DNA of 64,000 nt from an uncultured Gammaproteobacteria bacterium (GCA_964540995.1 CAZIOU010000003.1:576-64575), one strand, 5' to 3'. Positions 8,554 to 33,931 are shown, numbered from the stretch's first letter. Notes: generated from the sequence alone by a model not told the origin. A program made the numbers and translations.

Positions 8554-8640
8554 TCGGGGATCGCCACCCTTCGCTAAAGCTTCGGGCGGCAGGTCTAATG
8601 GTAGCCCACCAGAGGCGGGCAGGGACGACACGCGCGAGAA
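8554..8640 (+). pseudogene. decayed tRNA-Gln-like fragment with internal hairpin insertion
   Basis: Begins TCGGGGATCG (identical to the tRNA-Gln 5' end at 9025) and contains a D-loop-like AGGTCTAATGGTAG, interrupted by CCACCCTTCGCTAAAGCTTCGGGCGGC. Confidence 0.4.
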
Positions 8641-8728
8641 TTGTATTTAAAGTCAGGTATTGGCAGAGAAGAGAAACAAAAAATTATTACTTACTCGGGG
8701 ATCGTCTAATGGTAGGACGACAGGTTCT
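8638..8728 (+). repeat. 91-bp direct repeat copy 1 (leader plus tRNA-Gln 5' half to the anticodon loop)
   Basis: Near-identical (2 mismatches) to 8968-9058. Ends ...ACAGGTTCT inside the anticodon loop, then diverges into a perfect palindrome CCTGCCTGCCGGCAGGCAGG. Confidence 0.7.
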
Positions 8729-8766
8729 CCTGCCTGCCGGCAGGCAGGGGTCCTTCAAAGGGTTCG

Positions 8767-9039
8767 ATGGAGTTTAAAATGAAACACTGGGTATATATTC
8801 TGATAAGTGAGACTACAAAGAATTGGTCATATGTAGGTAGTACTTCAAACTTGCAAGAACGCCTATATAGACATAGTATTGGTAGGGTTAGTTCTACGAA
8901 AAGCAAGAGACCGTTGAAATGTATTTACAGTGAGATTCATTCTGACAGAACGCAGGCTTATAAACGGGAATTGTATTTAAAGTCGGGTATTGGTAGAGAA
9001 GAGAAACAAAAAATTATTACTTACTCGGGGATCGTCTAA
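8767..9039 (+). CDS. GIY-YIG nuclease family protein (small YhbQ/UPF0213-like)
   Basis: 'WVYILISE..SYVGSTSNLQERLYRH' GIY-YIG core. The ATG lies in a degenerate T-arm-like GGGTTCGATGG; the C-terminus is encoded by repeat copy 2. Confidence 0.75.
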   Translation: MEFKMKHWVYILISETTKNWSYVGSTSNLQERLYRHSIGRVSSTKSKRPLKCIYSEIHSDRTQAYKRELYLKSGIGREEKQKIITYSGIV

Positions 9040-9058
9040 TGGTAGGACGACAGGTTCT
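8968..9058 (+). repeat. 91-bp direct repeat copy 2 (overlaps GIY-YIG 3' end and the intact tRNA-Gln 5' half)
   Basis: See copy 1. Confidence 0.7.
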
Positions 9059-9098
9059 GGTCCTGTTAATTGGGGTTCGAGTCCCTATCCCCGAACCA
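9025..9098 (+). tRNA. tRNA-Gln (anticodon CUG)
   Basis: Hand-folded: acceptor UCGGGGA/UCCCCGA, U8, D-stem GUC/GAC with loop UAAUGGUAG, anticodon stem ACAGG/CCUGU with loop UUCUGGU, T-arm UGGGG-UUCGAGU-CCCUA, discriminator A, encoded CCA. Confidence 0.85.
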
Positions 9099-9162
9099 CC
9101 AGCCAGAGGCTGGTAAGGCGCGGCTACAAGGTAACTACTTTTCATTTAAATTATTATCAAAA

Positions 9163-9303
9163 CTTTTAGGGACTCGAACCCGGGAAGGGGTCGGGAAACG
9201 GGAGTTTCCCGTGGCGGAAGTACTGAAACCGAAGGGTTTCAGAATCACGCTTTAGCGTGATTGGGTTCTAGGAGTGAAACGACGGAGTCCCTATCCCCGA
9301 ACC
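9163..9303. pseudogene. tRNA-Gln-derived fragments (inverted T-arm copy; degenerate copy with insertions ending GAGTCCCTATCCCCGAACCA)
   Basis: 9163-9185 is the reverse complement of the tRNA-Gln T-arm. 9195-9303 has UCGGGAA ... UUGGGUUC[16-nt insert]GAGUCCCUAUCCCCGAACCA, identical over the last 20 nt to the real tRNA 3' end. Confidence 0.4.
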
Positions 9304-9422
9304 ACCCTGCGTCGTCCAAAGACGACTTCGGGTGGCCTCTGGCCATCCGACAACCGAAGGTTGTGCAGGGTAGTAACCCGAAGCTTTAAAGCGAAGGGTT
9401 ACAGGTTAGCAATTTATACATA

Positions 9423-10190
9423 ATGAAACTAATCTCACTCAACACATGGGGAGGACGGGCGGGGAAAGAAAAATTGTTAGATTTTTTTGCTAGATATCGC
9501 GACGTCGATATTTTTTGTTTGCAAGAAATTTGTGCTGGACCATTTCCCGAGCTTGAAGGTACTCAAGCAGGCGGTAAGACGCTTAAGCACGAAGAGGTGA
9601 TGGTATACGGAAGACAAGAGATTGCTGAGTTATTGAAGAATGACTATGTTTCTTTTTTTGATCCTCACTTCTTAGATATTTACGGTTTAATGCTGCTGAT
9701 GAAGAAAGATATTCCTGCAATTTCACAAGGAGATACATTTGTCTATCGCGAAAAAGGACACGTTCCCAGCGGTGATGCCGGTAATCATGCACGCAATATT
9801 CAGTACGCCACTATTCAGACCACGAAAGGCCCCGTGACTCTTGTTAACTTTCATGGATTGTGGAATGGCGGTGGCAAGGGCGATAGCGAAGATAGATTAT
9901 TACAGTCGGATCGTATTATTGAGTTTCTCAAATCTCTGACGAATCCATATATATTTTGTGGTGATTTTAATCTCAAGCCTGATACCGAAAGCTTGAAAAA
10001 GTTCGAAACATTGGGACTACGCAATTTGATCAAAGAATTCGGCATTACCTCCACCAGAACGAGCCTCTATACTAAGGAGGAGAAGTTTGCCGACTACACC
10101 TTCGTCAGTAATGGTATAATGGTTAAGGACTTCAAAGTATTGCCAGACGAGGTTTCTGATCATGCGGCAATGTATCTTGAATTTGACTAA
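9423..10190 (+). CDS. endonuclease/exonuclease/phosphatase (EEP) family protein
   Basis: 'LNTWGG', 'DIFCLQE', C-terminal 'SDHAAM'. Confidence 0.75.
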   Translation: MKLISLNTWGGRAGKEKLLDFFARYRDVDIFCLQEICAGPFPELEGTQAGGKTLKHEEVMVYGRQEIAELLKNDYVSFFDPHFLDIYGLMLLMKKDIPAISQGDTFVYREKGHVPSGDAGNHARNIQYATIQTTKGPVTLVNFHGLWNGGGKGDSEDRLLQSDRIIEFLKSLTNPYIFCGDFNLKPDTESLKKFETLGLRNLIKEFGITSTRTSLYTKEEKFADYTFVSNGIMVKDFKVLPDEVSDHAAMYLEFD

Positions 10191-10208
10191 TATATCACGC
10201 GTACAATC

Positions 10209-11516
10209 TTGAGATCGGGTAAGGTTAGCCTTATTTATTTGCTACTGCTGGTGCTTATCGGCGGAGGGGTTTTCTGGTTTCTACGTCAATCAGACTGGAA
10301 ACAGACCAAAAGCTTGGTCAAGCAGGCTACCAGTGAAGCCAAAGCCAAATCAGAAGTACCATCCAGAGTGATCGAGATCCCGAGCGGAGAGACTTTCGGG
10401 GCGCTACTACAAGACAATGGATTTACCGGTGCTGAAGCGCAGGCCATAGTTGAAGCAAGTAAAGATGTCTATGATCTGACTACGATCCGCGCTGGTAAGA
10501 AGATAGAGCTTTATACTGATGAGGCAGGGGAGGTGCAGAAGTTGAAATATAATATTAATACGGAAGAGTACTTAGAGGTTAGTCGGGACTCGTCACTCGG
10601 TACTGGGAAGTCCAATTCTCAAGTCACGAGCATCGACTCTTCAGTGACGAGCACCGAGTACCGAGTCCCAAGTCCCCATCCCTGGACTGCTGTGAAAGTC
10701 AAAGTTCCGTACGAAGTCAAGATTCAGACAGCACAAGGTACGGTCAAAGATATTTTCTATTCTTCGGCCTTGGAGCAGGGGATAGATGAATTATTGGTTT
10801 TGGACATTGCCGATCTATTTCAATGGCAAGTTGATTTCGCCTTGGACATTCGTAACGGTGATAGTTATAAGGTCATCTACGAAGCCCGTTATCTGGACGG
10901 TAAATACGTCATGCCTGGTAAGATTTTGGCAGCCGAATTTATTAACCAAGGCCAAAGCTATAAGGCGTTCAATTTCACTGACGCCGAAGGTAATGACAGT
11001 TATTATGATCAAGATGGTAATTCGACCGAGAAGATGTTCCTCAAAGCACCGGTATCCTTCAAATATATTTCTTCCGGCTTCACGACCGGTAAACGTTATG
11101 TTAGCGCGTTCAATGTTTCTACTGGTCACCGAGCGATTGATTATGCCGCTGCCGCTGGTACACCCATACGCGCTACAGCTGACGGCACGGTCACGTATGC
11201 TGGTTGGACCAACGCCGGCTACGGCAATCTGACGAGTATTCGCCACAACAGTACCTATTCTACTAATTACGGCCATCAGTCTAAGATTCTTGTTAAGGTG
11301 GGGCAGAAGGTCAAGCAAGGCCAGACTATCGGCTACGTCGGCTCTACTGGATTCTCGACCGGTCCACATCTGCATTATGAAATGGTCAAGAACGGTGTGA
11401 AGATCAATCCGCAACACGAAGTCTTACCACCAGGGAAATCTCTTGGAGCTGAAAGTAAAGAAGCCTTTGCTCAAGTTGTAGCTGAATATAGTCAGAAGTT
11501 AGAGGCGATTAAATAA
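10209..11516 (+). CDS. M23 family metallopeptidase (membrane-anchored), TTG start
   Basis: N-terminal TM; 'HRAIDYAA..GTPIRATADGTVTYAG', 'GYVGSTGFSTGPHLHYEM'. Confidence 0.85.
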   Translation: MRSGKVSLIYLLLLVLIGGGVFWFLRQSDWKQTKSLVKQATSEAKAKSEVPSRVIEIPSGETFGALLQDNGFTGAEAQAIVEASKDVYDLTTIRAGKKIELYTDEAGEVQKLKYNINTEEYLEVSRDSSLGTGKSNSQVTSIDSSVTSTEYRVPSPHPWTAVKVKVPYEVKIQTAQGTVKDIFYSSALEQGIDELLVLDIADLFQWQVDFALDIRNGDSYKVIYEARYLDGKYVMPGKILAAEFINQGQSYKAFNFTDAEGNDSYYDQDGNSTEKMFLKAPVSFKYISSGFTTGKRYVSAFNVSTGHRAIDYAAAAGTPIRATADGTVTYAGWTNAGYGNLTSIRHNSTYSTNYGHQSKILVKVGQKVKQGQTIGYVGSTGFSTGPHLHYEMVKNGVKINPQHEVLPPGKSLGAESKEAFAQVVAEYSQKLEAIK

Positions 11517-11524
11517 ACAATTTT

Positions 11525-11556
11525 AAGAGGAGACCGGTTAGGGTCTCCTCTTTTTT
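11525..11556 (+). terminator. rho-independent terminator (copy 1 of a repeated hairpin)
   Basis: AAGAGGAGACC-GGTTAG-GGTCTCCTCTTTTTT. Confidence 0.8.
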
Positions 11557-11749
11557 GTCGAGTTTAGTCCTCTTGATCAATCTTGATATGACCATTTCGA
11601 GTGACGGGGTCATAATTGACTATCAGCTCACAAGCAGTTTGTGGGCCATGCTTTGTTCTGTAAGCCTGAAAGGCGATTGACGAAACCTCCTTGTATTGAG
11701 CCGGAGTGATAACCAAACTTAGAATCCACCTCAGAGGATTCCGACATTC

Positions 11750-11962
11750 CTATTCGACTAACCCTTCTTTTCTCATCATCCAGAGACCTACTTGGAGAGA
11801 TCTATGATCGCCCTCATGATTGATAACTTTGAAGTAGACAGTCCGAAGGGATCCGCTCTCGATGATTGGTACTGGATCAGTCAATGCCAATTCCAAGTCG
11901 CGGAGTGAGGGACCGTCAACGATAGAGAATGGATCTGGCCTTTTGACGGCTTTCTGTGTCAT
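11750..11962 (-). CDS. short diverged paralog of the 12399-12839 protein
   Basis: 'FSIVDGPSLRDLELALTDPVP' versus 'FDIVAGPSLREIELAMTDPWP'; 'SLQVGLWMMRKEGL' versus 'AIVEIWMIRHVGL'. Confidence 0.4.
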   Translation of the reverse strand: MTQKAVKRPDPFSIVDGPSLRDLELALTDPVPIIESGSLRTVYFKVINHEGDHRSLQVGLWMMRKEGLVE

Positions 11963-12096
11963 CCGACACCTCCTAATGAACGTATTCCTTTACAGGCAGG
12001 AACAGCCCTTTACTCCGCGAGTAGCAGAGCGTATCTACCATACGGCAGATATGGCTTAATTATCATGAGTTTGCTAGGTTGTCAATCGAGACGATT

Positions 12097-12129
12097 TTAA
12101 GAGGAGACCGGTTAGGGTCTCCTCTTGGT
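12097..12129 (+). repeat. second identical copy of the 11525 hairpin (no strong U-tract)
   Basis: TTTTAAGAGGAGACCGGTTAGGGTCTCCTCTT identical at 11521-11552 and 12097-12128. Confidence 0.6.
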
Positions 12130-12146
12130 TATAGGTAATAGTTAAT

Positions 12147-12356
12147 TCAGGTGACAAGACGTTGACAGAAATGCCCGAGAAGGCTTCGCGACGGTATCTG
12201 ATCTCGCTCGCCGCGAACCTGATCCATCTGAGCATTCAGACCATCGTCCATGAACAGTTCGTGAATCGATTGAGGGGGAATAATTTTCCCTTCTACTTCG
12301 TTCATGAATAGCTCATGAACTCTGGGATCCACAGTGGTGCTGTCCAGTTGTCTCAT
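12147..12356 (-). CDS. hypothetical small protein
   Basis: 69-aa ORF, last gene of a three-gene minus-strand islet. Confidence 0.35.
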   Translation of the reverse strand: MRQLDSTTVDPRVHELFMNEVEGKIIPPQSIHELFMDDGLNAQMDQVRGERDQIPSRSLLGHFCQRLVT

Positions 12357-12398
12357 TTTTACTCCTTAGGTCTCGTAGGAATAGGAGTTGACGGACTG

Positions 12399-12839
12399 TT
12401 AAGGTCGTAGCTGTCTCCATGGTGGGTTAGTCAGAACGATGCGACCTCGTTTGCGCTCATAATCGTAGAGCGCGGCAATTTCACCGATATCGTACTCATC
12501 GTCGAAACGCTGTTCTAACTCCTCGTTGGGTTCGCTAGTGGGGTTGAAGATATGCCTAGCATCGAACCCTCGCATCACAAGGCCGAGATCAAGGCTTGTC
12601 TTGGTGGTCTCGCTTAGGTCATCCGTCGGTAGGCCGACATGGCGGATCATCCATATTTCTACTATGGCGTCCACCGTCCTGCCATCAATAGCGATGATGG
12701 AAAATTTAACCTTTCGCATAAATTTAGCTTCATCTGTCGATGCGGGCCGCCCGAGTGGCCAGGGGTCGGTCATGGCTAACTCGATTTCCCGCAATGATGG
12801 GCCAGCAACAATGTCGAAAGCTTGTGGTGTATCTGACAT
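12399..12839 (-). CDS. hypothetical protein (GC-rich islet)
   Basis: 146 aa, has a paralog at 11750-11962, no known family recognised. Confidence 0.5.
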   Translation of the reverse strand: MSDTPQAFDIVAGPSLREIELAMTDPWPLGRPASTDEAKFMRKVKFSIIAIDGRTVDAIVEIWMIRHVGLPTDDLSETTKTSLDLGLVMRGFDARHIFNPTSEPNEELEQRFDDEYDIGEIAALYDYERKRGRIVLTNPPWRQLRP

Positions 12840-12859
12840 AGCTTCCTCCGAAGACAGGA

Positions 12860-13348
12860 CTAGCGTCCGTGAGCCTGAAAGCCATGACTCGATCCGAGTA
12901 CGTTAGGAGCGTCTTCACCATCATAAACTGCCGTTTGGCTTTTTTCGCCTTTGGCGAAGAGCTGCAGAGACCACACTATGGATCCATTTCGGCCATTGAG
13001 TGAGGCAGTAATGCGGAAGCCGGTCCATTGCGTTTTACCTCGCGCTAGCAGAAAATCGACGAGAAAGGCAAGAATCTTTTCTGGCGTGGAATCCTTGGCC
13101 CAGTAGCCGATATCGCCTTCAAAGCTTCCGGTGTGCTGCTCGATGCAGGCTTGGCCACGAGTTGGATCGCGATACAGAATTCGATCGTGGTCTTCCATCA
13201 CGAGAGTGTCGACGGTGTCATCATAGTCCAGCGGGAACTGATATTGCCGCATCAACATATTACTGGCGGTGCCCGATAATGAGTCGAGACCACCAAAACG
13301 ATAGCGTTCGGCCAGTGCTACTCGTTCGATTGCCATAGTAATCTCCAA
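12860..13348 (-). CDS. hypothetical protein (GC-rich islet); likely start at second Met (MAIERV)
   Basis: SD GGAGA lies within the first codons and serves the second ATG. A TTGACA promoter-like sequence sits upstream on the minus strand. Confidence 0.5.
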   Translation of the reverse strand: MEITMAIERVALAERYRFGGLDSLSGTASNMLMRQYQFPLDYDDTVDTLVMEDHDRILYRDPTRGQACIEQHTGSFEGDIGYWAKDSTPEKILAFLVDFLLARGKTQWTGFRITASLNGRNGSIVWSLQLFAKGEKSQTAVYDGEDAPNVLGSSHGFQAHGR

Positions 13349-13440
13349 AGTGAGAGAAATGTAATGAACGGTGATAGGATAAAATACTATTTATGTGTAA
13401 TATTGTCAAGGTAGTGAAACCTTGATTTTATTGCCATTTT

Positions 13441-14985
13441 ATGGCATTGTTCAATATCGATATGACAAAAAACTCCAAAGATTACTTTCTCTACCGCTTC
13501 TGGGAGATTATCCCAGGCAGCTTAGTTTGGCTGACCTTTATCTTGGCTATTGGCTTGTCGCTCTGGCAGCCATTGTGGGGTATCTATTTCATCTTGATCT
13601 TTGATGTCTATTGGGTATTGCGGGTCACCTATTTGTTGGTTTTCCTTTTGCTGTCGTGGCGTAAATTTAGACAGAATATCAAACTCAATTGGTTCGCCAA
13701 ATTGAAGACAGAATTCGGTACTGGCGACAAAGTCTGGTCTGACTACCGCCATATAATTTTCTTGCCGATGTACAAAGAGCCTCTGTCGGTAGTGGAGGAT
13801 AGTTTCCAGAGTCTAATCGCTACTAACTATGATCACCGGAAGTTTCTCATCGTTTTGGCCGGCGAAGGTGGTGCGCAAGAACACTTTGAGCAAGTCTCGG
13901 CAGCTATCGTCACTAAATATAAGCAACACTTTTTCGATATTGTAGTTACCATTCATCCGCAAGACATTGAAGGTGAATTACGCGGCAAAGGCTCCAATCT
14001 TTATTGGGCGGGGAATAAGACCAAAGAGTATGTCGATCAACAAGGCTGGGATTACAAGCAGATTATTGTGTCCGCTTTTGACATCGATACTAGACCTCAC
14101 GAACAGTATTTCAGTTACTTGACCTATGCTTTCTTAACCAGTCCCAATCCCTATCGCACCAGCTTCCAACCGTTGACCTTATACCACAATAATATCTGGG
14201 AATCTGATCTGGTGACTCGGGTCGTAGCCAATTCGACCACCTTCTGGCTTATGACTGATCTGGCGCGAGCTGATCGGCTATTTACCTTCTCATCACATAG
14301 TATGAGCTGGCAGGCGCTGGTCGATGTCGGCTTCTGGCAAAATAATATCGTGACGGAAGACTCTCGCATCTTTTTGCAATGCTTGATCCACTATGATGGA
14401 GATTATCGGGTAACGCCGATGTATATGACGGTTTCGATGGACACTGTCTATGTCGGTTCGGTCTGGAAAAGTTTACTCAATCAATATAAGCAAATGCGCC
14501 GTTGGGCTTGGGGTGTCGAGCATTATCCTTATATGATGTGGCATTTCCGAGCTAATAAGAAGATTCCGCGTAAGAAGGCGCTAATCTATATTTTCAATCA
14601 GACGGAAGGTGTCTACTCTTGGGCTACCGCTCCAATACTAATCTTTATCATGGGTCATCTACCGCTGTGGATGGCCGATCGTATCAATGAGAATTCAGCT
14701 TTGGCACAGGCAGCACCGCTAATTTTGAGTAATTTGATGACGGCTGCCTTGGCAGGATTAGTCGTAACCGCTTTTATGAGTGTTTATATCTTACCCAAAT
14801 GTCCTTACACCGGAATTCGTAAGTTCTGGGCTTATAGTATGATGCTAGTGCAGTGGGTGTTTTTCCCGATTACTATGATCCTGTGGGGCTCGATACCAGC
14901 TATAGACGCACAAACACGCCTAATGGTAGGCGCGTATATGGGTTTCTGGGTGACAGAGAAGACGAGAGTGGGGAAGAGTAATTAG
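13441..14985 (+). CDS. membrane-embedded processive family-2 glycosyltransferase (cellulose/chitin-synthase-like)
   Basis: Multiple TM helices, 'SAFDID' (DxD), 'QYKQMRRWAWG' (QxxRW motif). Confidence 0.7.
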   Translation: MALFNIDMTKNSKDYFLYRFWEIIPGSLVWLTFILAIGLSLWQPLWGIYFILIFDVYWVLRVTYLLVFLLLSWRKFRQNIKLNWFAKLKTEFGTGDKVWSDYRHIIFLPMYKEPLSVVEDSFQSLIATNYDHRKFLIVLAGEGGAQEHFEQVSAAIVTKYKQHFFDIVVTIHPQDIEGELRGKGSNLYWAGNKTKEYVDQQGWDYKQIIVSAFDIDTRPHEQYFSYLTYAFLTSPNPYRTSFQPLTLYHNNIWESDLVTRVVANSTTFWLMTDLARADRLFTFSSHSMSWQALVDVGFWQNNIVTEDSRIFLQCLIHYDGDYRVTPMYMTVSMDTVYVGSVWKSLLNQYKQMRRWAWGVEHYPYMMWHFRANKKIPRKKALIYIFNQTEGVYSWATAPILIFIMGHLPLWMADRINENSALAQAAPLILSNLMTAALAGLVVTAFMSVYILPKCPYTGIRKFWAYSMMLVQWVFFPITMILWGSIPAIDAQTRLMVGAYMGFWVTEKTRVGKSN

Positions 14986-14992
14986 AAATAAG

Positions 14993-15087
14993 ATTCAATA
15001 ATCAAGCTACAATAATCAATATCAAATTGCAGAAAACGCCGGTGCACGAGTTTGAATATTGATTATTTCTGTATTGAATATTGTTTG
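14993..15087 (+). repeat. about 95-bp AT-rich repeat element ending in paired TTGAATATTG motifs
   Basis: TTCAATAATCAA..TGCAGAAAACG..GAGTTTGAATATTGATTATTTCTGTATTGAATATTGTTTG; a second full copy at 22051-22165. Confidence 0.6.
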
Positions 15088-15181
15088 AAATTTGGGTATT
15101 GATTATTGAACATTTCTCTGTATGCTGGATTGCTTCGCCCGCGGACGTTCTCGCAAAAGTGACAATAACTTGCTCTAGGCG

Positions 15182-18316: not shown

Positions 18317-19096
18317 TTAGCCGAGGTGAATTAGCGCATTATAATAGCCAATACCGACAGCGTGCTCGAAGCTAAGTGGCTGGACACTATAATTCTTGGT
18401 CTGTAGTAGACCGAGGGCCATGACGACCGGTCGTAGACCGCATATTGATTGGACCAAAGGATTATCGGTTGGGAGAGCTAGAAGTGCTTTGGTGTCATGA
18501 CGCTCAATCCAGGTGATTATCTTACGGTCGAGAGCGATAGCTTCAGCGTTAGACTGATTCTTGGTGTCATGACTAAGGTCGGCCGAGACAAGAACAGCTA
18601 CTCTTTGATTGGTCAGGTCGAGTGATTCGCGCCAGCGCTCACCGCAGGTATAGTGTGTTAGTAGATCCAATTCATGTGCCGTACCGACAGAAATTACGGG
18701 TATATTCCCAAGTATATCTAGTAAATGAAAGAGGGGTACTGAAGTGGCGTGATCGAGTTCACCGGTTTCTATGGCCACCATCGGAACGGCTGTTTCTATC
18801 GCTTGACGCAAGCTGTAGGCCAAACCGATATTGTTCTGCATCTGGCCATAGGGAGTGAGATCGCCAAAATCACGAAAGGTGACCGTCAAAGTAGTATTTT
18901 GATTGATACTCATGGTGCCAGCTGGAGCTTTGACATGCGGTGAAATAACCAAAATAGTCTCTGGCTTGGAAGCATAGAGTTCCTGTCGGATTTGTTTGAG
19001 ACCGGCCATGGTTGCCGCAATTTGATGGTCGGTGCCTTTTCCGATGGCCGGTATGGAGACGACCGGATGTGCCACGATAGCCGCGAAGCAAATCAT
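18317..19096 (-). CDS. LigB-family (class III extradiol dioxygenase / MEMO-like) protein
   Basis: 'IVAHPVVSIP' and 'ILVISPHVKAP' resemble LigB/DODA signatures; weak. Confidence 0.45.
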   Translation of the reverse strand: MICFAAIVAHPVVSIPAIGKGTDHQIAATMAGLKQIRQELYASKPETILVISPHVKAPAGTMSINQNTTLTVTFRDFGDLTPYGQMQNNIGLAYSLRQAIETAVPMVAIETGELDHATSVPLFHLLDILGNIPVISVGTAHELDLLTHYTCGERWRESLDLTNQRVAVLVSADLSHDTKNQSNAEAIALDRKIITWIERHDTKALLALPTDNPLVQSICGLRPVVMALGLLQTKNYSVQPLSFEHAVGIGYYNALIHLG

Positions 19097-19097
19097 G

Positions 19098-20492
19098 TTA
19101 GAAGATTATATCAGGACCTTGAGGGTGAAGATTCAGTACTTTGTCTGAGACAGTTATCACATTGGTAAACTTGTAGCCCAGCGCAGTGAAGGTCTTTTCA
19201 TCGGGGATACGAAGACGCATTCCATTGGAGACAACGAAGACATCGGGTATATCCTTGGCTTTAAGAAGCATTCCGTCTTTAAAGAAGATCGGATCACCAT
19301 CGGTGAAGCTTTCTAAGGTCTTCTGGCTAGCTGGATAGATCTTGACCTTGGGGTAATTGGCCTTGAGGAGTTCTCGGGCCCATATAGGATGTTTGATATT
19401 GGCTTCAACATAGTAAACACCTCCGGTCGTGCGATCTTGAAGTAAAGCACCGGTAGGATAATTATCGAGTTCAGTGATATCAGCACCGTCCGGAATAAGT
19501 GCTAGCTGTTCGGCTGTGATATCGTCAGCTTCGGCCGGATTGAAGCCAATCAACTTGAATACTTTGGGTGAGGCGATCTTGCGTTTGTACTGATCGGCGA
19601 TCATATAGTAGGTCTTGTCCGGGCCGACCACTAGCGAATTGGCAGCATAGCGGACAGGTTCACCGGTCTCATAAGCATCAATGTCAGTTTTTTCGACGGT
19701 TAAGATTTGAGTGGTGCTATAGCGCGAAGCAAAAGCAGCCTTAGTAGCAAAGAGACGCTTCTTACCGTCTTGGATTAGCCAGATATCTTTATCTTTCTTG
19801 ACTTGCAAGATGGAGCCATCGGGGAAGTGTGATTTGGCGAAATATTTATCCCACAGCGTCTTGAATAGCTCATTGCCGTGAAGATGAGGTGTGTAGGTGT
19901 AGAGAGCGGCGGTACTGACATTTTTGGGAGTGACGGTAGCGCATTTGCCATCGGCGCTGTTATTGCAGATGCGGTAGGTTTTGCCTGGCTGATAGTAATA
20001 TTCATCAATGTTATCTAAGTAGTAGCGGAATTGGGCAGCGGCACTGATAACTTGTTTATGGAAGCCGCGCCAACGTTCGGAGCAGGGCGCGGTGTCGGGA
20101 CAGCCATAACCGGCAGCATAATCGAGAGCTCGTTGACTGGGATTAGCAGAAGTCAGTAGACTTTGCTCTTTCTGGATCAGGATCAGGAGAAATTTGGGGT
20201 TGATCTGATATTGATGAGCGGCTCGATAGATCATCTCAGTCGCAGAGACTAAGCGACCCTCGCCAGTATCCATGAAGTAATTCTTCAAGAAGCTGCCGCT
20301 CTGATTCAAGAAGTCTAAAATGCCGGTTTGTGATAGAGCGTCGGCATTGGTAAGTTCGCTATCGGATATAAGATAGTTGTAGTCGACAGTCGAAGTCGTG
20401 GTTGAGGCTGTTTGCGCTTGAGCCGTATCTAACGGTAAGATACACACAGCGATGAGAATAAAAAGCGCGATAGCGCGGTTAAATTGATTCAT
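19098..20492 (-). CDS. secreted hypothetical protein (signal peptide)
   Basis: N-terminal 'MNQFNRAIALFILIAVCILPLDTAQA'. Confidence 0.55.
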   Translation of the reverse strand: MNQFNRAIALFILIAVCILPLDTAQAQTASTTTSTVDYNYLISDSELTNADALSQTGILDFLNQSGSFLKNYFMDTGEGRLVSATEMIYRAAHQYQINPKFLLILIQKEQSLLTSANPSQRALDYAAGYGCPDTAPCSERWRGFHKQVISAAAQFRYYLDNIDEYYYQPGKTYRICNNSADGKCATVTPKNVSTAALYTYTPHLHGNELFKTLWDKYFAKSHFPDGSILQVKKDKDIWLIQDGKKRLFATKAAFASRYSTTQILTVEKTDIDAYETGEPVRYAANSLVVGPDKTYYMIADQYKRKIASPKVFKLIGFNPAEADDITAEQLALIPDGADITELDNYPTGALLQDRTTGGVYYVEANIKHPIWARELLKANYPKVKIYPASQKTLESFTDGDPIFFKDGMLLKAKDIPDVFVVSNGMRLRIPDEKTFTALGYKFTNVITVSDKVLNLHPQGPDIIF

Positions 20493-20583: not shown

Positions 20584-21144
20584 ATGTCTGATGCCTTACG
20601 ATTATTTATAGCTTTGGAGCCTGATAGTGGCGTTCAGAAGCAAGCAGCTAAGGAGTTTGCTCGCTTTGGTTTCGGTACTGAAGTCAAACCAACCGACAAG
20701 GAGCAGTTACACTCCACACTCAAATTTTGGAGTCATTTCCCACTTCAAGACCTGGCTCAACTCTTACAAGCATTAGAAGATGTGGCACAGCGTCATCCAG
20801 TGCTTACTTTGGATTTCAATCAGCCAGTAATCTTCGGCGGGCAACAAGCTCGTGTCCTAGCACTCGAAGCCGAGAAGAATGAGGAATTAGTTGATCTGTA
20901 TAATGATCTGGAGGAGACCTTGGTGGAATACGGCTTGGCTGACAGGGAAGGTAGATTGTTCCGCCCGCATCTGACATTGGCGCGAGTCAAAGATTATTTT
21001 ACTGAAGAAGACAGGCAGAAGTTTGAAGCTTGGAAGCCGGACATCTCGGCAGTCCATGAAGATTTGAAATTATATTCCAGTATTCTCACTCCCAAAGGAC
21101 CGGAGTATGATCAGTTGGGGAGTTTTCCGCTGCAGAATGAGTAA
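20584..21144 (+). CDS. thpR: RNA 2',3'-cyclic phosphodiesterase (2H phosphoesterase, LigT/ThpR)
   Basis: Two HxT/S motifs, 'HSTLKFW' and 'HLTLARV'. Short leader after a CATAAT-like -10. Confidence 0.8.
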   Translation: MSDALRLFIALEPDSGVQKQAAKEFARFGFGTEVKPTDKEQLHSTLKFWSHFPLQDLAQLLQALEDVAQRHPVLTLDFNQPVIFGGQQARVLALEAEKNEELVDLYNDLEETLVEYGLADREGRLFRPHLTLARVKDYFTEEDRQKFEAWKPDISAVHEDLKLYSSILTPKGPEYDQLGSFPLQNE

Positions 21145-21256
21145 TTTAATATCGTCTTTGCGAGAACGTCTGCGGGCAAAGCAATCTAGTATGCAGGAAA
21201 TTTCAAGCTAGACTGCCACGGCCTTGCTAGGCCTCGCAGAGACAGAATGAAAATAA

Positions 21257-22039: not shown

Positions 22040-22510
22040 AATATAGGGTAATACTCAAGTTTCAATAATCAATAGCCAAACAATAATAAATAATTAAGTT
22101 AAAATGCAGAAAACGTTAAAGAATGAGTTTAAATATTGATTATTTCTGCGTTGAATATTGTTTGCCTGCCCGTCTTGGCAAGCCAAAGGCGCGTCGGGCG
22201 GGGAATTTGAGTATTGTTTATTGAATATTTATAAGCTAGACTGCTTCGTCGACCAAGCTCGCCTCGCAGAGACAGAGACTGCTTTGTTTATTGAATATTG
22301 GACCTTTCTCTGGTATCTTTAGCCCAGAATAGACAATAATTATCAATATTCAAGCCACAATAGTCAAACAATAATCTCAGCCAAAGGCTGATCGTCCTCT
22401 GGACGAAAACAATAACTAATAATCAATTTTCAATAGAAGAAAAATACATAAAGAGTTTGAATATTGATTATTTCTGTATTGAATATTGTTTGTAACTTGA
22501 GTATTGTTTA
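22040..22510 (+). repeat. 470-bp AT-rich non-coding region packed with TTGAATATTG / CAATATTCAA motifs and two about 40-bp direct repeats
   Basis: GAGTTT(G/A)AATATTGATTATTTCTG..TTGAATATTGTTTG at 22125-22165 and 22453-22493. GAGTATTGTTTATTGAATATT at 22209 and 22500, the latter abutting the tagA ATG. Confidence 0.6.
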
Positions 22511-33712: not shown

Positions 33713-33931
33713 ATAGTTAAAACTTATTGTTAAAAAATACCCCCAACCGTTAGGTCGGGGGTTGAAAGCTGATTTGGTTCAGTTCGCTATTGAGGCGAAC
33801 CTGTCCATGAGATAGGGTAGCCAGCAGATCACCGTGCCGTAAGAATGTCCACAACATGTAGCCGTAGACAGCCAGACAGGCTAGTAGTAGATTCCTCGGA
33901 AGCGGATATGTCCTATGCTTTGACATCTCCT

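What the first reader, a model, noticed from the sequence alone, without database searches (positions are those of the whole stretch)
11517..13440. GC-rich three-gene islet of unknown function with an internal partial duplication delimited by an identical terminator hairpin
Between the M23 peptidase and the GT2 synthase lies a segment that is visibly more GC-rich than its surroundings. It encodes three minus-strand proteins (162, 146 and 69 aa) with no recognisable domains, each with an SD, and with a promoter-like TTGACA upstream of the first.

A fourth, shorter paralog of the 146-aa protein (70 aa; shared motifs FxIVxGPSLRxxELAxTDP and WMxRxxGL) lies in a 575-bp unit. That unit is bounded by two identical 32-bp copies of the hairpin TTTTAAGAGGAGACCGGTTAGGGTCTCCTCTT, at 11521 and 12097. 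The hairpin doubles as the peptidase terminator.

Composition, unknown families, the paralogous pair and the cassette-like hairpin boundaries suggest a horizontally acquired module, possibly a toxin/immunity or defence-type module.
Basis: partly seen in the sequence, partly recalled or inferred. Interest (0 to 1): 0.65.

Follow-up and report, generated by a model that had tools for sequence, protein, structure and literature searches.

The report
ORFan gene cassettes sharing one terminator
Two tandem transcription units of a very rare, unnamed gene family sit between housekeeping genes of an uncultured bacterium and end in the same terminator hairpin; this is a native, strain-variable locus rather than foreign DNA, and the family carries a conserved, undescribed RNA leader.

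Summary
The sequence features are real, with small coordinate errors. The interpretation needs revising.

**The "partial duplication".** It is a complete second cassette: promoter, ~90-nt structured 5' leader, a 132-codon paralog of the 146-aa gene, and the hairpin. In this genome a TGG>TAG change splits the paralog into the 70- and 50-aa ORFs. It is intact in two relatives.

**The hairpin.** It is the ancestral intrinsic terminator at the 3' end of this gene family. It stays almost base-for-base conserved in relatives whose neighbouring M23 peptidase is only 61-68% identical.

**Variation between relatives.** They carry 158+146+69+132, 158+146+69, 158+146, or 132 alone in the same slot. A near-identical contig lacks exactly the 574-bp unit.

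**Foreign origin.** It is not supported: synteny holds across the lineage, GC3 is normal, and there are no mobility genes.

**Function.** Both families are true ORFans (about 10 and 3 clusters among 5.8 billion). They have no Pfam, NCBIfam, PHROGs, PADLOC, PDB or fold match. Function is unknown, and a toxin/immunity or defence role is untested.

**New findings.** The family's 5' leader RNA has a covariation-supported hairpin and no Rfam match. The middle of the 146-aa gene exists as deeply diverged alleles exchanged by recombination.

The parts
10209..11516 (+). Flank: membrane-anchored M23 peptidase (Csd3_N2 + Peptidase_M23), convergent with the slot genes
   Evidence: Pfam PF01551 E=7e-36 and PF19425 E=1.8e-13. 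Orthologs flank the slot in all relatives.
11517..11552 (.). Outer copy of the 36-nt repeat. The hairpin at 11525-11552 (11-bp stem, 6-nt loop) followed by TTTTTTG is the intrinsic terminator of the peptidase gene, and it marks the 3' end of the 132-codon cassette.
   Evidence: Conserved in every M23-linked relative.
11564..11962 (-). 132-codon paralog of the 146-aa gene, interrupted by an in-frame TAG at 11750-11752. This yields the 70-aa ORF (11750-11962) and the 50-aa ORF (11564-11716).
   Evidence: It falls in the same 90% cluster as the intact 132-aa P0007. L002 and L004 have TGG at that codon. dN/dS is 0.13-0.16 against L004.
11963..12051 (-). Structured 5' leader RNA of the 132-codon gene. 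P1 hairpin 12032-12051 (GUAU loop), P2 hairpin 12012-12030, possible H-type pseudoknot 11984-12008, and SD AGGAGG within 11967-11975.
   Evidence: The leader is conserved where the CDS is not: L025 vs L020 is 90% nt identity over 102 nt. P1 covariation is shown, and RNAalifold recovers it independently. nhmmer and cmsearch find it only upstream of family genes. No Rfam match. Coordinates.
12058..12085 (-). Promoter-like region of the 132-codon cassette: TTGACA at 12080-12085 and a GATAAT-like -10 after a 15-nt spacer
   Evidence: Read directly from the sequence. It is homologous to the region upstream of the solitary 132-aa gene in L004. The consensus scanner did not call it because of the 15-nt spacer.
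12091..12126 (.). Inner copy of the 36-nt repeat (hairpin 12099-12126), at the 3' end of the 158-146-69 operon. It has no T-run on either strand.
12147..12356 (-). 69-aa gene of unknown function. Among the loci examined it is present only in the closest strains (window, L001, L002). It lies between the 146-aa gene and the hairpin.
   Evidence: Absent from L003 and L009-L017. Identical in L002. No family hit.
12399..12839 (-). 146-aa member of the ORFan family. The N-terminal (~33 aa) and C-terminal (~28 aa) segments are conserved. The middle is deeply divergent between alleles.
   Evidence: AF2 model pLDDT 71.7 with no fold match.
12860..13336 (-). 158-aa gene of a second ORFan family. It is found only in this subclade and is always followed by a 146-type gene.
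   Evidence: AF2 model unusable, pLDDT 39.6. No profile similarity to the 146 family.
13381..13409 (-). Promoter-like site TTGACA-17-TATTTT for the 158-146-69 operon
   Evidence: Conserved in L009 and L088.
13441..14985 (+). Flank: conserved 514-aa membrane protein, divergent from the slot genes.
   Evidence: No Pfam hit at E<=1. The sequence contains a QxxRW-like motif, QYKQMRRWAWG. Orthologs flank the slot in relatives.

Best explanation
**Shown: architecture.** 11517-13440 is a native, strain-variable slot between two conserved chromosomal genes of an uncultured, probably CPR/Parcubacteria-like, bacterium. It holds two independent minus-strand transcription units built around one ORFan family.
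- Unit 1 is an operon: promoter at 13409, then the 158-aa, 146-aa and 69-aa genes, then the hairpin.
- Unit 2 is the family's standard self-contained cassette: promoter, ~90-nt structured leader RNA, the family gene (132 codons, recently knocked out here by TGG>TAG), then the hairpin.
- The 28-nt hairpin is the ancestral intrinsic terminator at the 3' end of the family gene, where it converges on the M23 peptidase gene. It occurs twice because each unit ends in a copy.

**Inferred: history.**
- The two units descend from an old tandem duplication, or from the joining of two haplotypes, of the promoter-leader-gene-hairpin cassette.
- Unit 1 later lost the leader and gained the 158-aa and 69-aa genes.
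- The 36-nt direct repeat now allows precise loss of unit 2 by recombination or replication slippage.
- Relatives have lost one unit or the other.
- Homologous recombination in conserved flanks swaps deeply diverged alleles of the gene's middle part.

**Function: low confidence, about 0.3.** The family protein is a small cytoplasmic factor kept under long-term allelic diversification. That pattern suggests a role in a between-genome conflict, such as an immunity-like or anti-phage/anti-competitor function. The leader RNA would control its synthesis post-transcriptionally.
For: **Architecture**
- ORFs, Shine-Dalgarno sequences, promoters and hairpins.
- The intact 132-aa ortholog is in the same 90% cluster as the 70-aa ORF.
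- The only disruption is a TAG where L002 and L004 have TGG, and dN/dS against L004 is 0.13-0.16.

**Variable slot**
- Window and L002 carry 158+146+69+132. L001 carries 158+146+69. L003, L009-L017 and L088/89 carry 158+146. L004-L008 carry 132 only.
- L001 is 99.97-100% identical to the window, with the 574 bp missing exactly between the repeats.

**Native, not foreign**
- The flanking genes are syntenic housekeeping genes.
- GC3 is normal.
- A family gene plus the hairpin lies next to the orthologous M23 peptidase at 61-68% aa identity.

**The hairpin is a terminator**
- It has a U-tract in the peptidase sense in all relatives.
- The recurrent T>C variant keeps pairing (G.U) only in that sense.
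- The same stem occurs with other loops in 58 unrelated metagenome contigs, many followed by T-rich tails.

**Cassette unity**
- The leader (90% nt) and the hairpin region (86% nt) are conserved between L020 and L025, while the enclosed proteins are 32% identical.
- The breakpoint between L020 and L021 lies exactly at the 5' end of the leader.
- The sequence upstream of unit 2 is homologous to that upstream of the solitary L004 gene.

**Leader structure**
- P1 is 89% paired. 7 of 8 pairs show changes on both sides, and 0 of 500 shuffles reach the observed score.
- RNAalifold recovers P1 independently.
- The covariance model finds an untrained leader in L090 at E=0.003.

**Allele exchange**
- L002 is ~100% identical to the window around the gene, but ~57% identical in the middle of the 146 gene.
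- There it matches the L009 allele at 87-100%, and dS is saturated (1.9).
Against: - Function is not supported by any homology, domain or fold match.
- dN/dS in the variable part is 0.22, so there is no direct sign of positive selection.
- Recombination patches also occur in neighbouring genes, so allele swapping is not unique to this gene.
- L001 is a k=31 de Bruijn assembly and the exact repeat is 33 nt. The clean deletion could therefore be an assembly path or a minor or major subpopulation, not a fixed haplotype.
- The order of events cannot be resolved. All family members are about equally distant (~30%), so old duplication with differential loss and later joining of two haplotypes remain equally possible.
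- The near-invariance of the hairpin sequence, with no compensatory stem changes across lineages, is more than a terminator normally needs. This is not explained.
- The promoter of unit 2 has a non-canonical 15-nt spacer.
Confidence: 0.6

Rival explanations
1. One reading: a horizontally acquired island encoding a toxin/immunity or anti-phage defence module, with the 158-aa and 146-aa proteins as the functional pair.
For: - The 158+146 core is 52% GC, against 45.8% for the window.
- The families are unknown.
- There are paralogs and presence/absence variation.
- 158 is always followed by a 146-type gene.
- Alleles are deeply diverged.
Against: - GC3 is within 1 SD of the genome's genes.
- Synteny holds across relatives down to 61-68% peptidase identity.
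- There are no mobility genes in the neighbourhood.
- There are no PADLOC, PHROGs or viral hits.
- The family is solitary in the other family contexts examined, so there is no obligate partner.
Confidence: 0.12
2. The hairpin is a site-specific recombination site (attC-like or Xer/dif-like, with 11-6-11 geometry). Unit 2 would be a cassette that excises and integrates through it.
For: - The unit is bounded by directly repeated 11-6-11 palindromes and is precisely absent in L001.
- Other rearrangements (insertion of the 69-aa gene, the unit junction) abut the hairpin edges exactly.
- The hairpin sequence is far more conserved than a terminator needs.
Against: - There is no recombinase in any of the neighbourhoods.
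- The stem is perfect, with no extrahelical bases and no R/L core pairs.
- The cassette has its own promoter.
- There is no GC-skew switch at the site.
- The site is single-copy per locus and fixed in position.
- The outer copy is a canonical terminator.
- A 36-nt direct repeat is enough for RecA-dependent deletion or slippage (established knowledge).
- The inner junction looks like the TAAAATC sequence upstream of the family promoter.
Confidence: 0.06
3. The family protein is a dedicated cytoplasmic partner or regulator of the M23 peptidase or the cell-envelope machinery. It would be an ordinary lineage-specific housekeeping accessory, and the variation would be neutral.
For: - The family gene lies tail-to-tail with the orthologous M23 peptidase in four diverged lineages.
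- Other contexts lie near FtsW/RodA and DUF3048 or glycosyltransferase clusters.
- Purifying selection: dN/dS 0.13-0.24.
Against: - The arrangement is convergent, so the genes are not co-transcribed.
- The proteins have no signal peptide or TM segment, while the peptidase domains are extracytoplasmic (sequence).
- Other members sit between tRNA synthetase genes or next to prmC/prfA.
- The family diverges far faster than the peptidase: 32% against 80% for L020/L025, and 66% against 92.5% for window/L009.
- The gene is dispensable, being knocked out here.
Confidence: 0.15
4. The duplication is an assembly artefact, a mis-joined repeat in the MAG.
For: The repeat is short. L001, from another assembly, lacks the unit.
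Against: - An independent assembly from another sample (L002, DRR783857) has the same colinear arrangement, with its own point differences and an intact 132-aa gene.
- Unit 2 has orthologs at the same slot in L004-L008.
Confidence: 0.03

Closest known systems
Rho-independent (intrinsic) terminator between convergent genes
   Same: GC-containing 11-bp stem, 6-nt loop, U-tract in the peptidase sense and an A-tract on the other side. It sits immediately after two converging stop codons.
   Different: The sequence is almost invariant across lineages, with no compensatory drift. The inner copy lacks any U-tract. In the family-gene sense the tail is AAAAUUG, which is not U-rich.
Phage 'morons' and other self-contained accessory transcription units (promoter-gene-terminator inserted between conserved genes; my own knowledge)
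   Same: Unit 2 and the solitary relatives are single genes with their own promoter and terminator, lodged between housekeeping genes. They are present or absent between close strains.
   Different: There is no prophage context and no viral hits. The slot is stable across the lineage. A conserved structured leader is part of the unit.
Orphan immunity-gene arrays / polymorphic toxin-immunity loci, e.g. recombinase-associated acquired interbacterial defence clusters of Bacteroidales (my own knowledge)
   Same: Tandem divergent paralogs of a small cytoplasmic protein, copy-number variation, pseudogenisation, and deeply diverged alleles exchanged through conserved flanks.
   Different: No toxin gene, no recombinase, no secretion-system context and no homology to any immunity family. 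Most members are solitary.
Integron gene cassettes (attC) and Xer-dependent dif modules (my own knowledge)
   Same: A gene followed by a palindromic site that is repeated at the cassette boundary, with 11-6-11 geometry. The result is what excision between direct sites would give.
   Different: No integrase or Xer gene nearby. The stem is perfect, without attC extrahelical bases or core sites. The cassette has its own promoter. The site also works as a canonical terminator.
Cis-regulatory 5' leader RNAs (riboswitches with H-type pseudoknots such as preQ1-I or SAM-II; autoregulatory leaders of ribosomal-protein and T4 gene 32 mRNAs; my own knowledge)
   Same: An ~90-nt leader conserved more strongly than the coding sequence, a covarying 5' hairpin with an invariant loop, a possible compact pseudoknot a little upstream of the SD, and a loop motif (YCGKAUGR) that repeats the start-codon context.
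   Different: No match to any of 4227 Rfam families at E<=1. No ligand or binding protein is known. The pseudoknot support is weak. No expression platform that sequesters the SD is evident in the MFE folds.

Membership tests
Intrinsic terminator | Stable GC-containing stem-loop immediately followed by a U-run on the transcribed strand, at the 3' end of a gene | tested here: met
   The outer copy is met on the + strand, and likewise in all relatives. The inner copy has the stem but no U-run, so it is not met there.
Horizontally acquired genomic island | Atypical composition at synonymous sites, mobility genes or tRNA/att boundaries, and absence from sister genomes | tested here: not met
   GC3 is 0.53-0.54 against 0.488 +/- 0.062. 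There are no integrase or transposase genes among the neighbours. The genes are syntenic in relatives.
Known anti-phage defence systems (PADLOC-DB v2) | At least one protein matching a defence-system HMM | tested here: not met
   There were no hits at E<=1 for the five window proteins or for 8 family members.
Type II toxin-antitoxin or toxin-immunity pair | Two adjacent co-transcribed genes that always co-occur, with at least one recognisable toxin, antitoxin or immunity domain | tested here: not met
   158 is always followed by a 146-type gene. However, the 146/132 family is solitary in the other family contexts examined. No domain was recognised. Toxicity itself cannot be tested with these tools.
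Integron gene cassette / attC | Promoterless ORF plus an imperfect attC hairpin with R''-L''/L'-R' cores and extrahelical bases, with an IntI integrase and attI nearby | tested here: not met
   The stem is a perfect 11 bp and the cassette has its own promoter. No integrase was seen in the neighbourhoods.
Xer/dif site or dif module | 28-bp 11-6-11 site with dif-like arms, at the GC-skew switch (chromosomal dif) or flanking modules on plasmids, with Xer recombinase binding | tested here: inconclusive
   The 11-6-11 geometry is met. There is no skew switch at the site. Arm similarity to dif was judged by eye only. Recombinase binding cannot be tested.
Any described RNA family (Rfam 15) | Covariance-model match to the leader or the hairpin | tested here: not met
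   There were no matches at E<=1 in 11000-14000. In the whole window only tRNA-Gln reached the gathering score.
Structured cis-regulatory leader RNA (generic class) | Conserved position upstream of one gene family, and secondary structure supported by covariation | tested here: met
   The position is specific to family genes. P1 covariation: 7 of 8 pairs change on both sides, and 0 of 500 shuffles reach the observed score. RNAalifold recovers it. Regulation itself was not tested.
H-type pseudoknot riboswitch | Two interleaved helices with covariation, plus ligand-dependent switching | tested here: inconclusive
   On 5 sequences with hand-picked arms, 92% of cells are paired and 3 pairs change on both sides. 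12-25 of 500 shuffles reach the observed values. Ligand binding cannot be tested.
HYR (hyalin repeat) Ig-like domain | Full-length match to the ~80-aa HYR repeat | tested here: not met
   Only an 18-residue motif (LALTDPxPxG) matches the repeats of a 2242-aa protein, E=1.8e-4. Pfam gives no HYR hit. AF2 predicts a helix at that position.

The most novel reading that the evidence does not exclude
The promoter-leader-gene-hairpin unit is a new kind of single-gene module specific to CPR-type bacteria. In it, a hypervariable ORFan protein acts in self/non-self or anti-phage conflict. A previously undescribed structured leader RNA controls it, either as a riboswitch or as an autoregulatory binding site whose loop mimics the gene's own start-codon context. 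Alleles and whole cassettes are exchanged through the invariant leader and hairpin flanks.
Probability: 0.2. Interest if true: 0.7.

Novelty: new variant of a known kind. Interest (0 to 1): 0.42.

Why it matters
**Ordinary part.** As a genome feature this is a native variable slot, where tandem accessory cassettes are gained and lost through a short direct repeat. It is not an acquired island.

**What is worth keeping**
- Two protein families have no relatives outside a handful of uncultured lineages. There are about 10 and 3 clusters among 5.8 billion, and no domain or fold match.
- The family's 5' leader RNA has clear covariation in one hairpin and no Rfam counterpart. That makes it a candidate new cis-regulatory RNA in a group of organisms where almost no regulation is understood.
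- The locus gives a clean natural example of allele and cassette turnover anchored on conserved non-coding flanks.

If the leader proves to be a sensor, or the protein a conflict factor, it would give a handle on the biology of small-genome episymbionts.

Tried and rejected
- **Domain and family searches.** Pfam, NCBIfam, PHROGs and PADLOC were run on all five ORFs, and Pfam, PHROGs and PADLOC on 8 family members. Nothing was found.
- **PDB sequence profiles.** Nothing better than E=1.8.
- **Structure.**
  - The 146-aa model is moderate (pLDDT 71.7). Foldseek against the PDB and BFVD gave no match (best E=0.47 and 0.11, TM <= 0.34).
  - The 158-aa model is unusable (pLDDT 39.6).
- **158 vs 146 relationship.** Profile-profile comparison shows none.
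- **Viral contig scans.** None for either family.
- **Hairpin scans of JGI metagenomes.**
  - With the AAAAT flank there were zero hits.
  - The stem alone gave 58 hits, all in unrelated organisms with other loops. The scan added no relatives, but it shows the stem is a generic terminator-type sequence.
- **HYR-repeat similarity.** Rejected as a short motif match.
- **Upstream ORF starting at the AUG in the P1 loop.** Rejected, because its length and sequence are not conserved between loci (my own reading of the leader sequences).
- **Recent tandem duplication.** Rejected. The paralogs are ~30% identical, and window self-BLAST finds no nucleotide similarity beyond the 36-nt repeat.
- **Charge as a clue to function.** The pI ranges from 4.4 to 9.75 across the family.
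- **Naming the organism from cluster names.** No names are on record.
- **MAFFT alignment of the pseudoknot region.** It was unreliable, so the arms were extracted by hand.
Full report
**1. Observation**

The two 32-nt hairpin copies are exact and lie at 11521-11552 and 12095-12126. None of 100 shuffles gives any match. Together with flanking bases they form a 36-nt direct repeat, 35/36 identical, spaced 574 bp apart.

The hairpin has an 11-bp stem and a 6-nt loop. The 61-nt regions containing it fold at -19.5 to -22.8 kcal/mol on either strand (z -3.5 to -4.9). Only the outer copy is followed by a T-run (TTTTTTG, + strand), so only it scores as a terminator, for the M23 peptidase gene. The inner copy has no T-run in either direction.

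The minus-strand ORFs are present. Public gene calls start the first gene at ATG 13336, giving 158 aa, rather than at TTG 13348. The 70-aa ORF matches the N-terminus of the 146-aa protein: 42% identity, E=5e-14.

The GC excess is real but modest. The islet is 48.2% against 45.8% for the window (92nd percentile). The 158+146 core is 52.0%, which ties with one other region as the highest in the window. GC3 of the two genes (0.53-0.54) is within one SD of the window's 58 long ORFs (0.488 +/- 0.062). The excess therefore lies in amino-acid composition and is not a foreign synonymous-site signature.

**2. The "partial duplication" is a whole gene with one nonsense codon**

The 70-aa ORF falls in the same 90% cluster as an intact 132-aa protein, P0007. 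The C-terminus of P0007 is the window's 50-aa ORF at 11564-11716. Reading through, the window differs by a single in-frame TAG at 11750-11752, where L002 and L004 have TGG.

Between the window/L002 lineage and L004 the gene has dN/dS 0.13-0.16, so it is a real, selected gene. Between the window and L002 there are 1 synonymous and 5 non-synonymous differences plus the stop, which fits recent inactivation. The 132-aa and 146-aa proteins align over their full length but are only about 30% identical. Apart from the 36-nt repeat, window self-BLAST detects no nucleotide similarity between the two units. This is an old paralog, not a recent copy.

**3. The slot in relatives**

Exact-protein look-ups recovered syntenic contigs. 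In all of them the slot lies between the conserved 514-aa membrane protein gene and the convergent M23 peptidase gene, among PriA, Def, Fmt, GluRS and similar genes. The content varies:

| Loci | Nucleotide identity to the window | Slot content |
|---|---|---|
| Window | n/a | 158+146+69+hairpin+132+hairpin |
| L002 | 96.6% overall, ~100% over most of the block | Same as window |
| L001 | 99.97-100% | 158+146+69 with one hairpin; the 574 bp are missing exactly between the repeats |
| L003, L009-L017, L088/89 | ~86-88% (measured for L003 and L009) | 158+146 only (L088/89 are short fragments showing 514-158-146) |
| L004-L008 | ~81-87% (measured for L004) | The 132-aa gene only |

L001 is a k=31 Logan contig and the exact repeat is 33 nt. 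An assembly short-cut therefore cannot be excluded. However, the same contig ends at other, longer repeats (compare). That suggests the unit-less path was unbranched in that sample. This last point is inference.

**4. The hairpin**

Every locus in which a family gene lies near the M23 peptidase gene has exactly one copy (two in the window and L002) of AAGAGGAGRCC-CTRACC-GGYCTCCTCTT-AAAAT. In L004 the loop is shortened.

This holds in L020/L021 and L025, whose peptidases are only 61-68% identical to the window's. In L025 another gene (612 aa) lies between the hairpin and the peptidase gene, so there the hairpin stays with the family gene.

In the peptidase sense the hairpin is always followed by a U-run. 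The recurrent T>C variant (L020, L025, inner copy of L002) keeps a G.U pair only in that sense. The same stem, with unrelated loops, occurs in 58 metagenome contigs of 32-69% GC, many followed by T-rich tails.

I conclude it is an intrinsic terminator. Its near-invariance, with no compensatory stem changes, is more than a terminator needs and remains unexplained. There is no GC-skew switch at the site, and no recombinase among the called genes of any neighbourhood.

**5. A conserved cassette with a structured leader**

Upstream of every family gene except the 146-type genes lies a promoter-like TTGACA and a leader of about 70-120 nt.

Between L020 and L025 the leader is 90% identical over 102 nt and the hairpin region 86% over 56 nt. 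The enclosed proteins are 32% identical and the coding sequence does not align at the nucleotide level. L020 and L021 carry the same 143-aa gene and a near-identical leader (99.8% over the shared 946 nt) with different upstream neighbours. The breakpoint is at the first base of the leader.

Structure of the leader:
- **P1.** The leader begins with hairpin P1 (window 12051-12032), which has an invariant G(U/G)AU loop. Across 7 distinct sequences 89% of cells pair, and 7 of 8 pairs show changes on both sides. No shuffle of 500 reaches the observed pairing or covariation score, and slid controls fall to 36-48%. RNAalifold on an unguided MAFFT alignment recovers P1.
- **P2.** A second hairpin follows in every sequence.
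- **Possible pseudoknot.** In six sequence types two interleaved helices could then form a compact H-type pseudoknot (window 12008-11984). On the five types that could be aligned there are three compensatory pairs. However, 12-25 of 500 shuffles do as well, and I picked the arms by hand, so this is only suggestive.
- **Repeated motif.** YCGKAUGR occurs both in the P1 loop and at the start codon of the main ORF (read directly from the sequences).

Specificity of the leader:
- nhmmer and a covariance model find the leader only upstream of family genes, once per locus. In the window this is 11960-12055.
- The model also detects the untrained L090 leader at E=0.003.
- Rfam has no match at E<=1.
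- The operon's 5' UTR keeps only a CGTTCATTA remnant upstream of the 158-aa gene.

**6. The proteins**

The 146/132 family comprises about 10 clusters among 5.8 billion. It gave 8 hits among 1.84 billion representatives, one of them a short motif match to HYR repeats that I reject. All members are unnamed or "hypothetical". One record is labelled Parcubacteria group.

Members are 109-146 aa with no signal or transmembrane segment. They share an invariant GPS...TDPxP N-terminal motif and a Y...G C-terminal hairpin. Their pI ranges from 4.4 to 9.75.

Contexts:
- Beside the M23 peptidase gene (window clade, L020/21, L025).
- Between a DUF3048 gene and prmC/prfA (L019, L024).
- Between ValRS and PheT genes (L085, my reading of the translated neighbours).
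- Next to ydjM (L090).

Outside the 158-146(-69) operon, the family gene has no conserved co-directional partner. L020 and L024 each have one unrelated same-strand neighbour. The 158-aa family has 3 clusters, all in the window's subclade and always followed by a 146-type gene. No library, PDB profile or fold search gave a match. The two families are unrelated to each other.

**7. Population signal**

The family diverges far faster than its neighbours:
- 66% against 92.5% (peptidase) for window vs L009.
- 32% against 80% for L020 vs L025.

Between window and L009 the first 33 and last 28 codons of the 146-aa gene are conserved (dN/dS 0.05 and 0.15). The middle has saturated dS (1.9) with dN/dS 0.22.

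L002 is identical to the window through the 158-aa gene and the first ~90 nt of the 146-aa gene. It then switches to the L009-type allele: ~57% identity to the window and 87-100% to L009. So there are old allelic lineages, exchanged by homologous recombination in conserved flanks. Two other recombination patches occur within the ~15 kb compared (~12 kb in the main aligned block), so the process is not unique to this gene.

**8. Interpretation**

*Shown.* This is a native variable slot holding two transcription units of one ORFan family. Each ends in a copy of the ancestral terminator, and unit 2 is inactivated here.

*Inferred.*
- The arrangement comes from an old tandem duplication of the promoter-leader-gene-hairpin cassette, or from the joining of two haplotypes. 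The inner junction...CTCTTAAAATCGT..., resembles the AATAAAATC just upstream of the family promoter.
- Unit 1 was then remodelled: the leader was lost and the 158- and 69-aa genes were gained.
- Differential loss in relatives followed, through the 36-nt repeat or the two promoters.

*Function.* It is unknown. The most likely reading, at about 0.3, is a small cytoplasmic factor under long-term diversification and so conflict-related, with leader-controlled synthesis. A peptidase- or envelope-linked accessory role is the main alternative.

Noticed in passing
window 8635-9306: tRNA-Gln (CTG) lies at 9025-9098. A 94-nt direct repeat (8635-8728 and 8965-9058, 97%) duplicates the 5' part of the tRNA together with the 3' end of a 90-aa GIY-YIG-like ORF (8767-9039). 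A 22-nt exact repeat of the tRNA 3' end recurs at 9285-9306. These look like scars of insertions at the tRNA gene. Relatives differ in gene content in this interval (L004: 130 aa + CYTH; L009: 278 aa + GIY-YIG + 70 aa).
   Followed up: partly
window 14990-15175, 21139-21206, 22057-22164, 22407-22492: A small family of ~70-110-nt intergenic repeats at 77-81% identity, direct and inverted. One member lies just downstream of the 514-aa gene. The ends of the Logan contig L001 coincide with such repeats. Nothing here reached an Rfam gathering score.
   Followed up: no
window 18900-19800 and 9900-11700 compared with L002: L002 is ~100% identical to the window over most of the ~12-kb main aligned block. 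It drops to 77-94% in two further patches (a gene around 19.2-19.8 kb and the M23 peptidase gene). This indicates frequent recombinational imports in the population.
   Followed up: partly
window 11898-11916 and 12002-12020: A 19-nt stretch of the leader (overlapping P2 and S1) is 79% complementary to the codons of the conserved GPSLRD motif of the 132-codon gene. I could not find the leader-side sequence conserved in L004, so this is probably chance.
   Followed up: partly
window 33737-33827 (+): Weak covariance-model match to the leader (12.7 bits, E=0.54) in an intergenic region. Probably chance.
   Followed up: no
It is not homologous by BLASTP to the GT2 protein that precedes the family gene in L020.
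   Followed up: partly
L018 / L004 (CAZPQR010000005.1): This syntenic relative is deposited as 'uncultured Gammaproteobacteria bacterium'. A distant family member is in a 'Parcubacteria group' MAG. The gammaproteobacterial label may be wrong.
   Followed up: no
P0015 (2242 aa, from the representative search): The family's LALTDPxPxG motif matches seven HYR-type repeats (VRSDNLALTDPYPVG) of a large surface protein at E=1.8e-4. I judged it a short convergent motif.
   Followed up: partly
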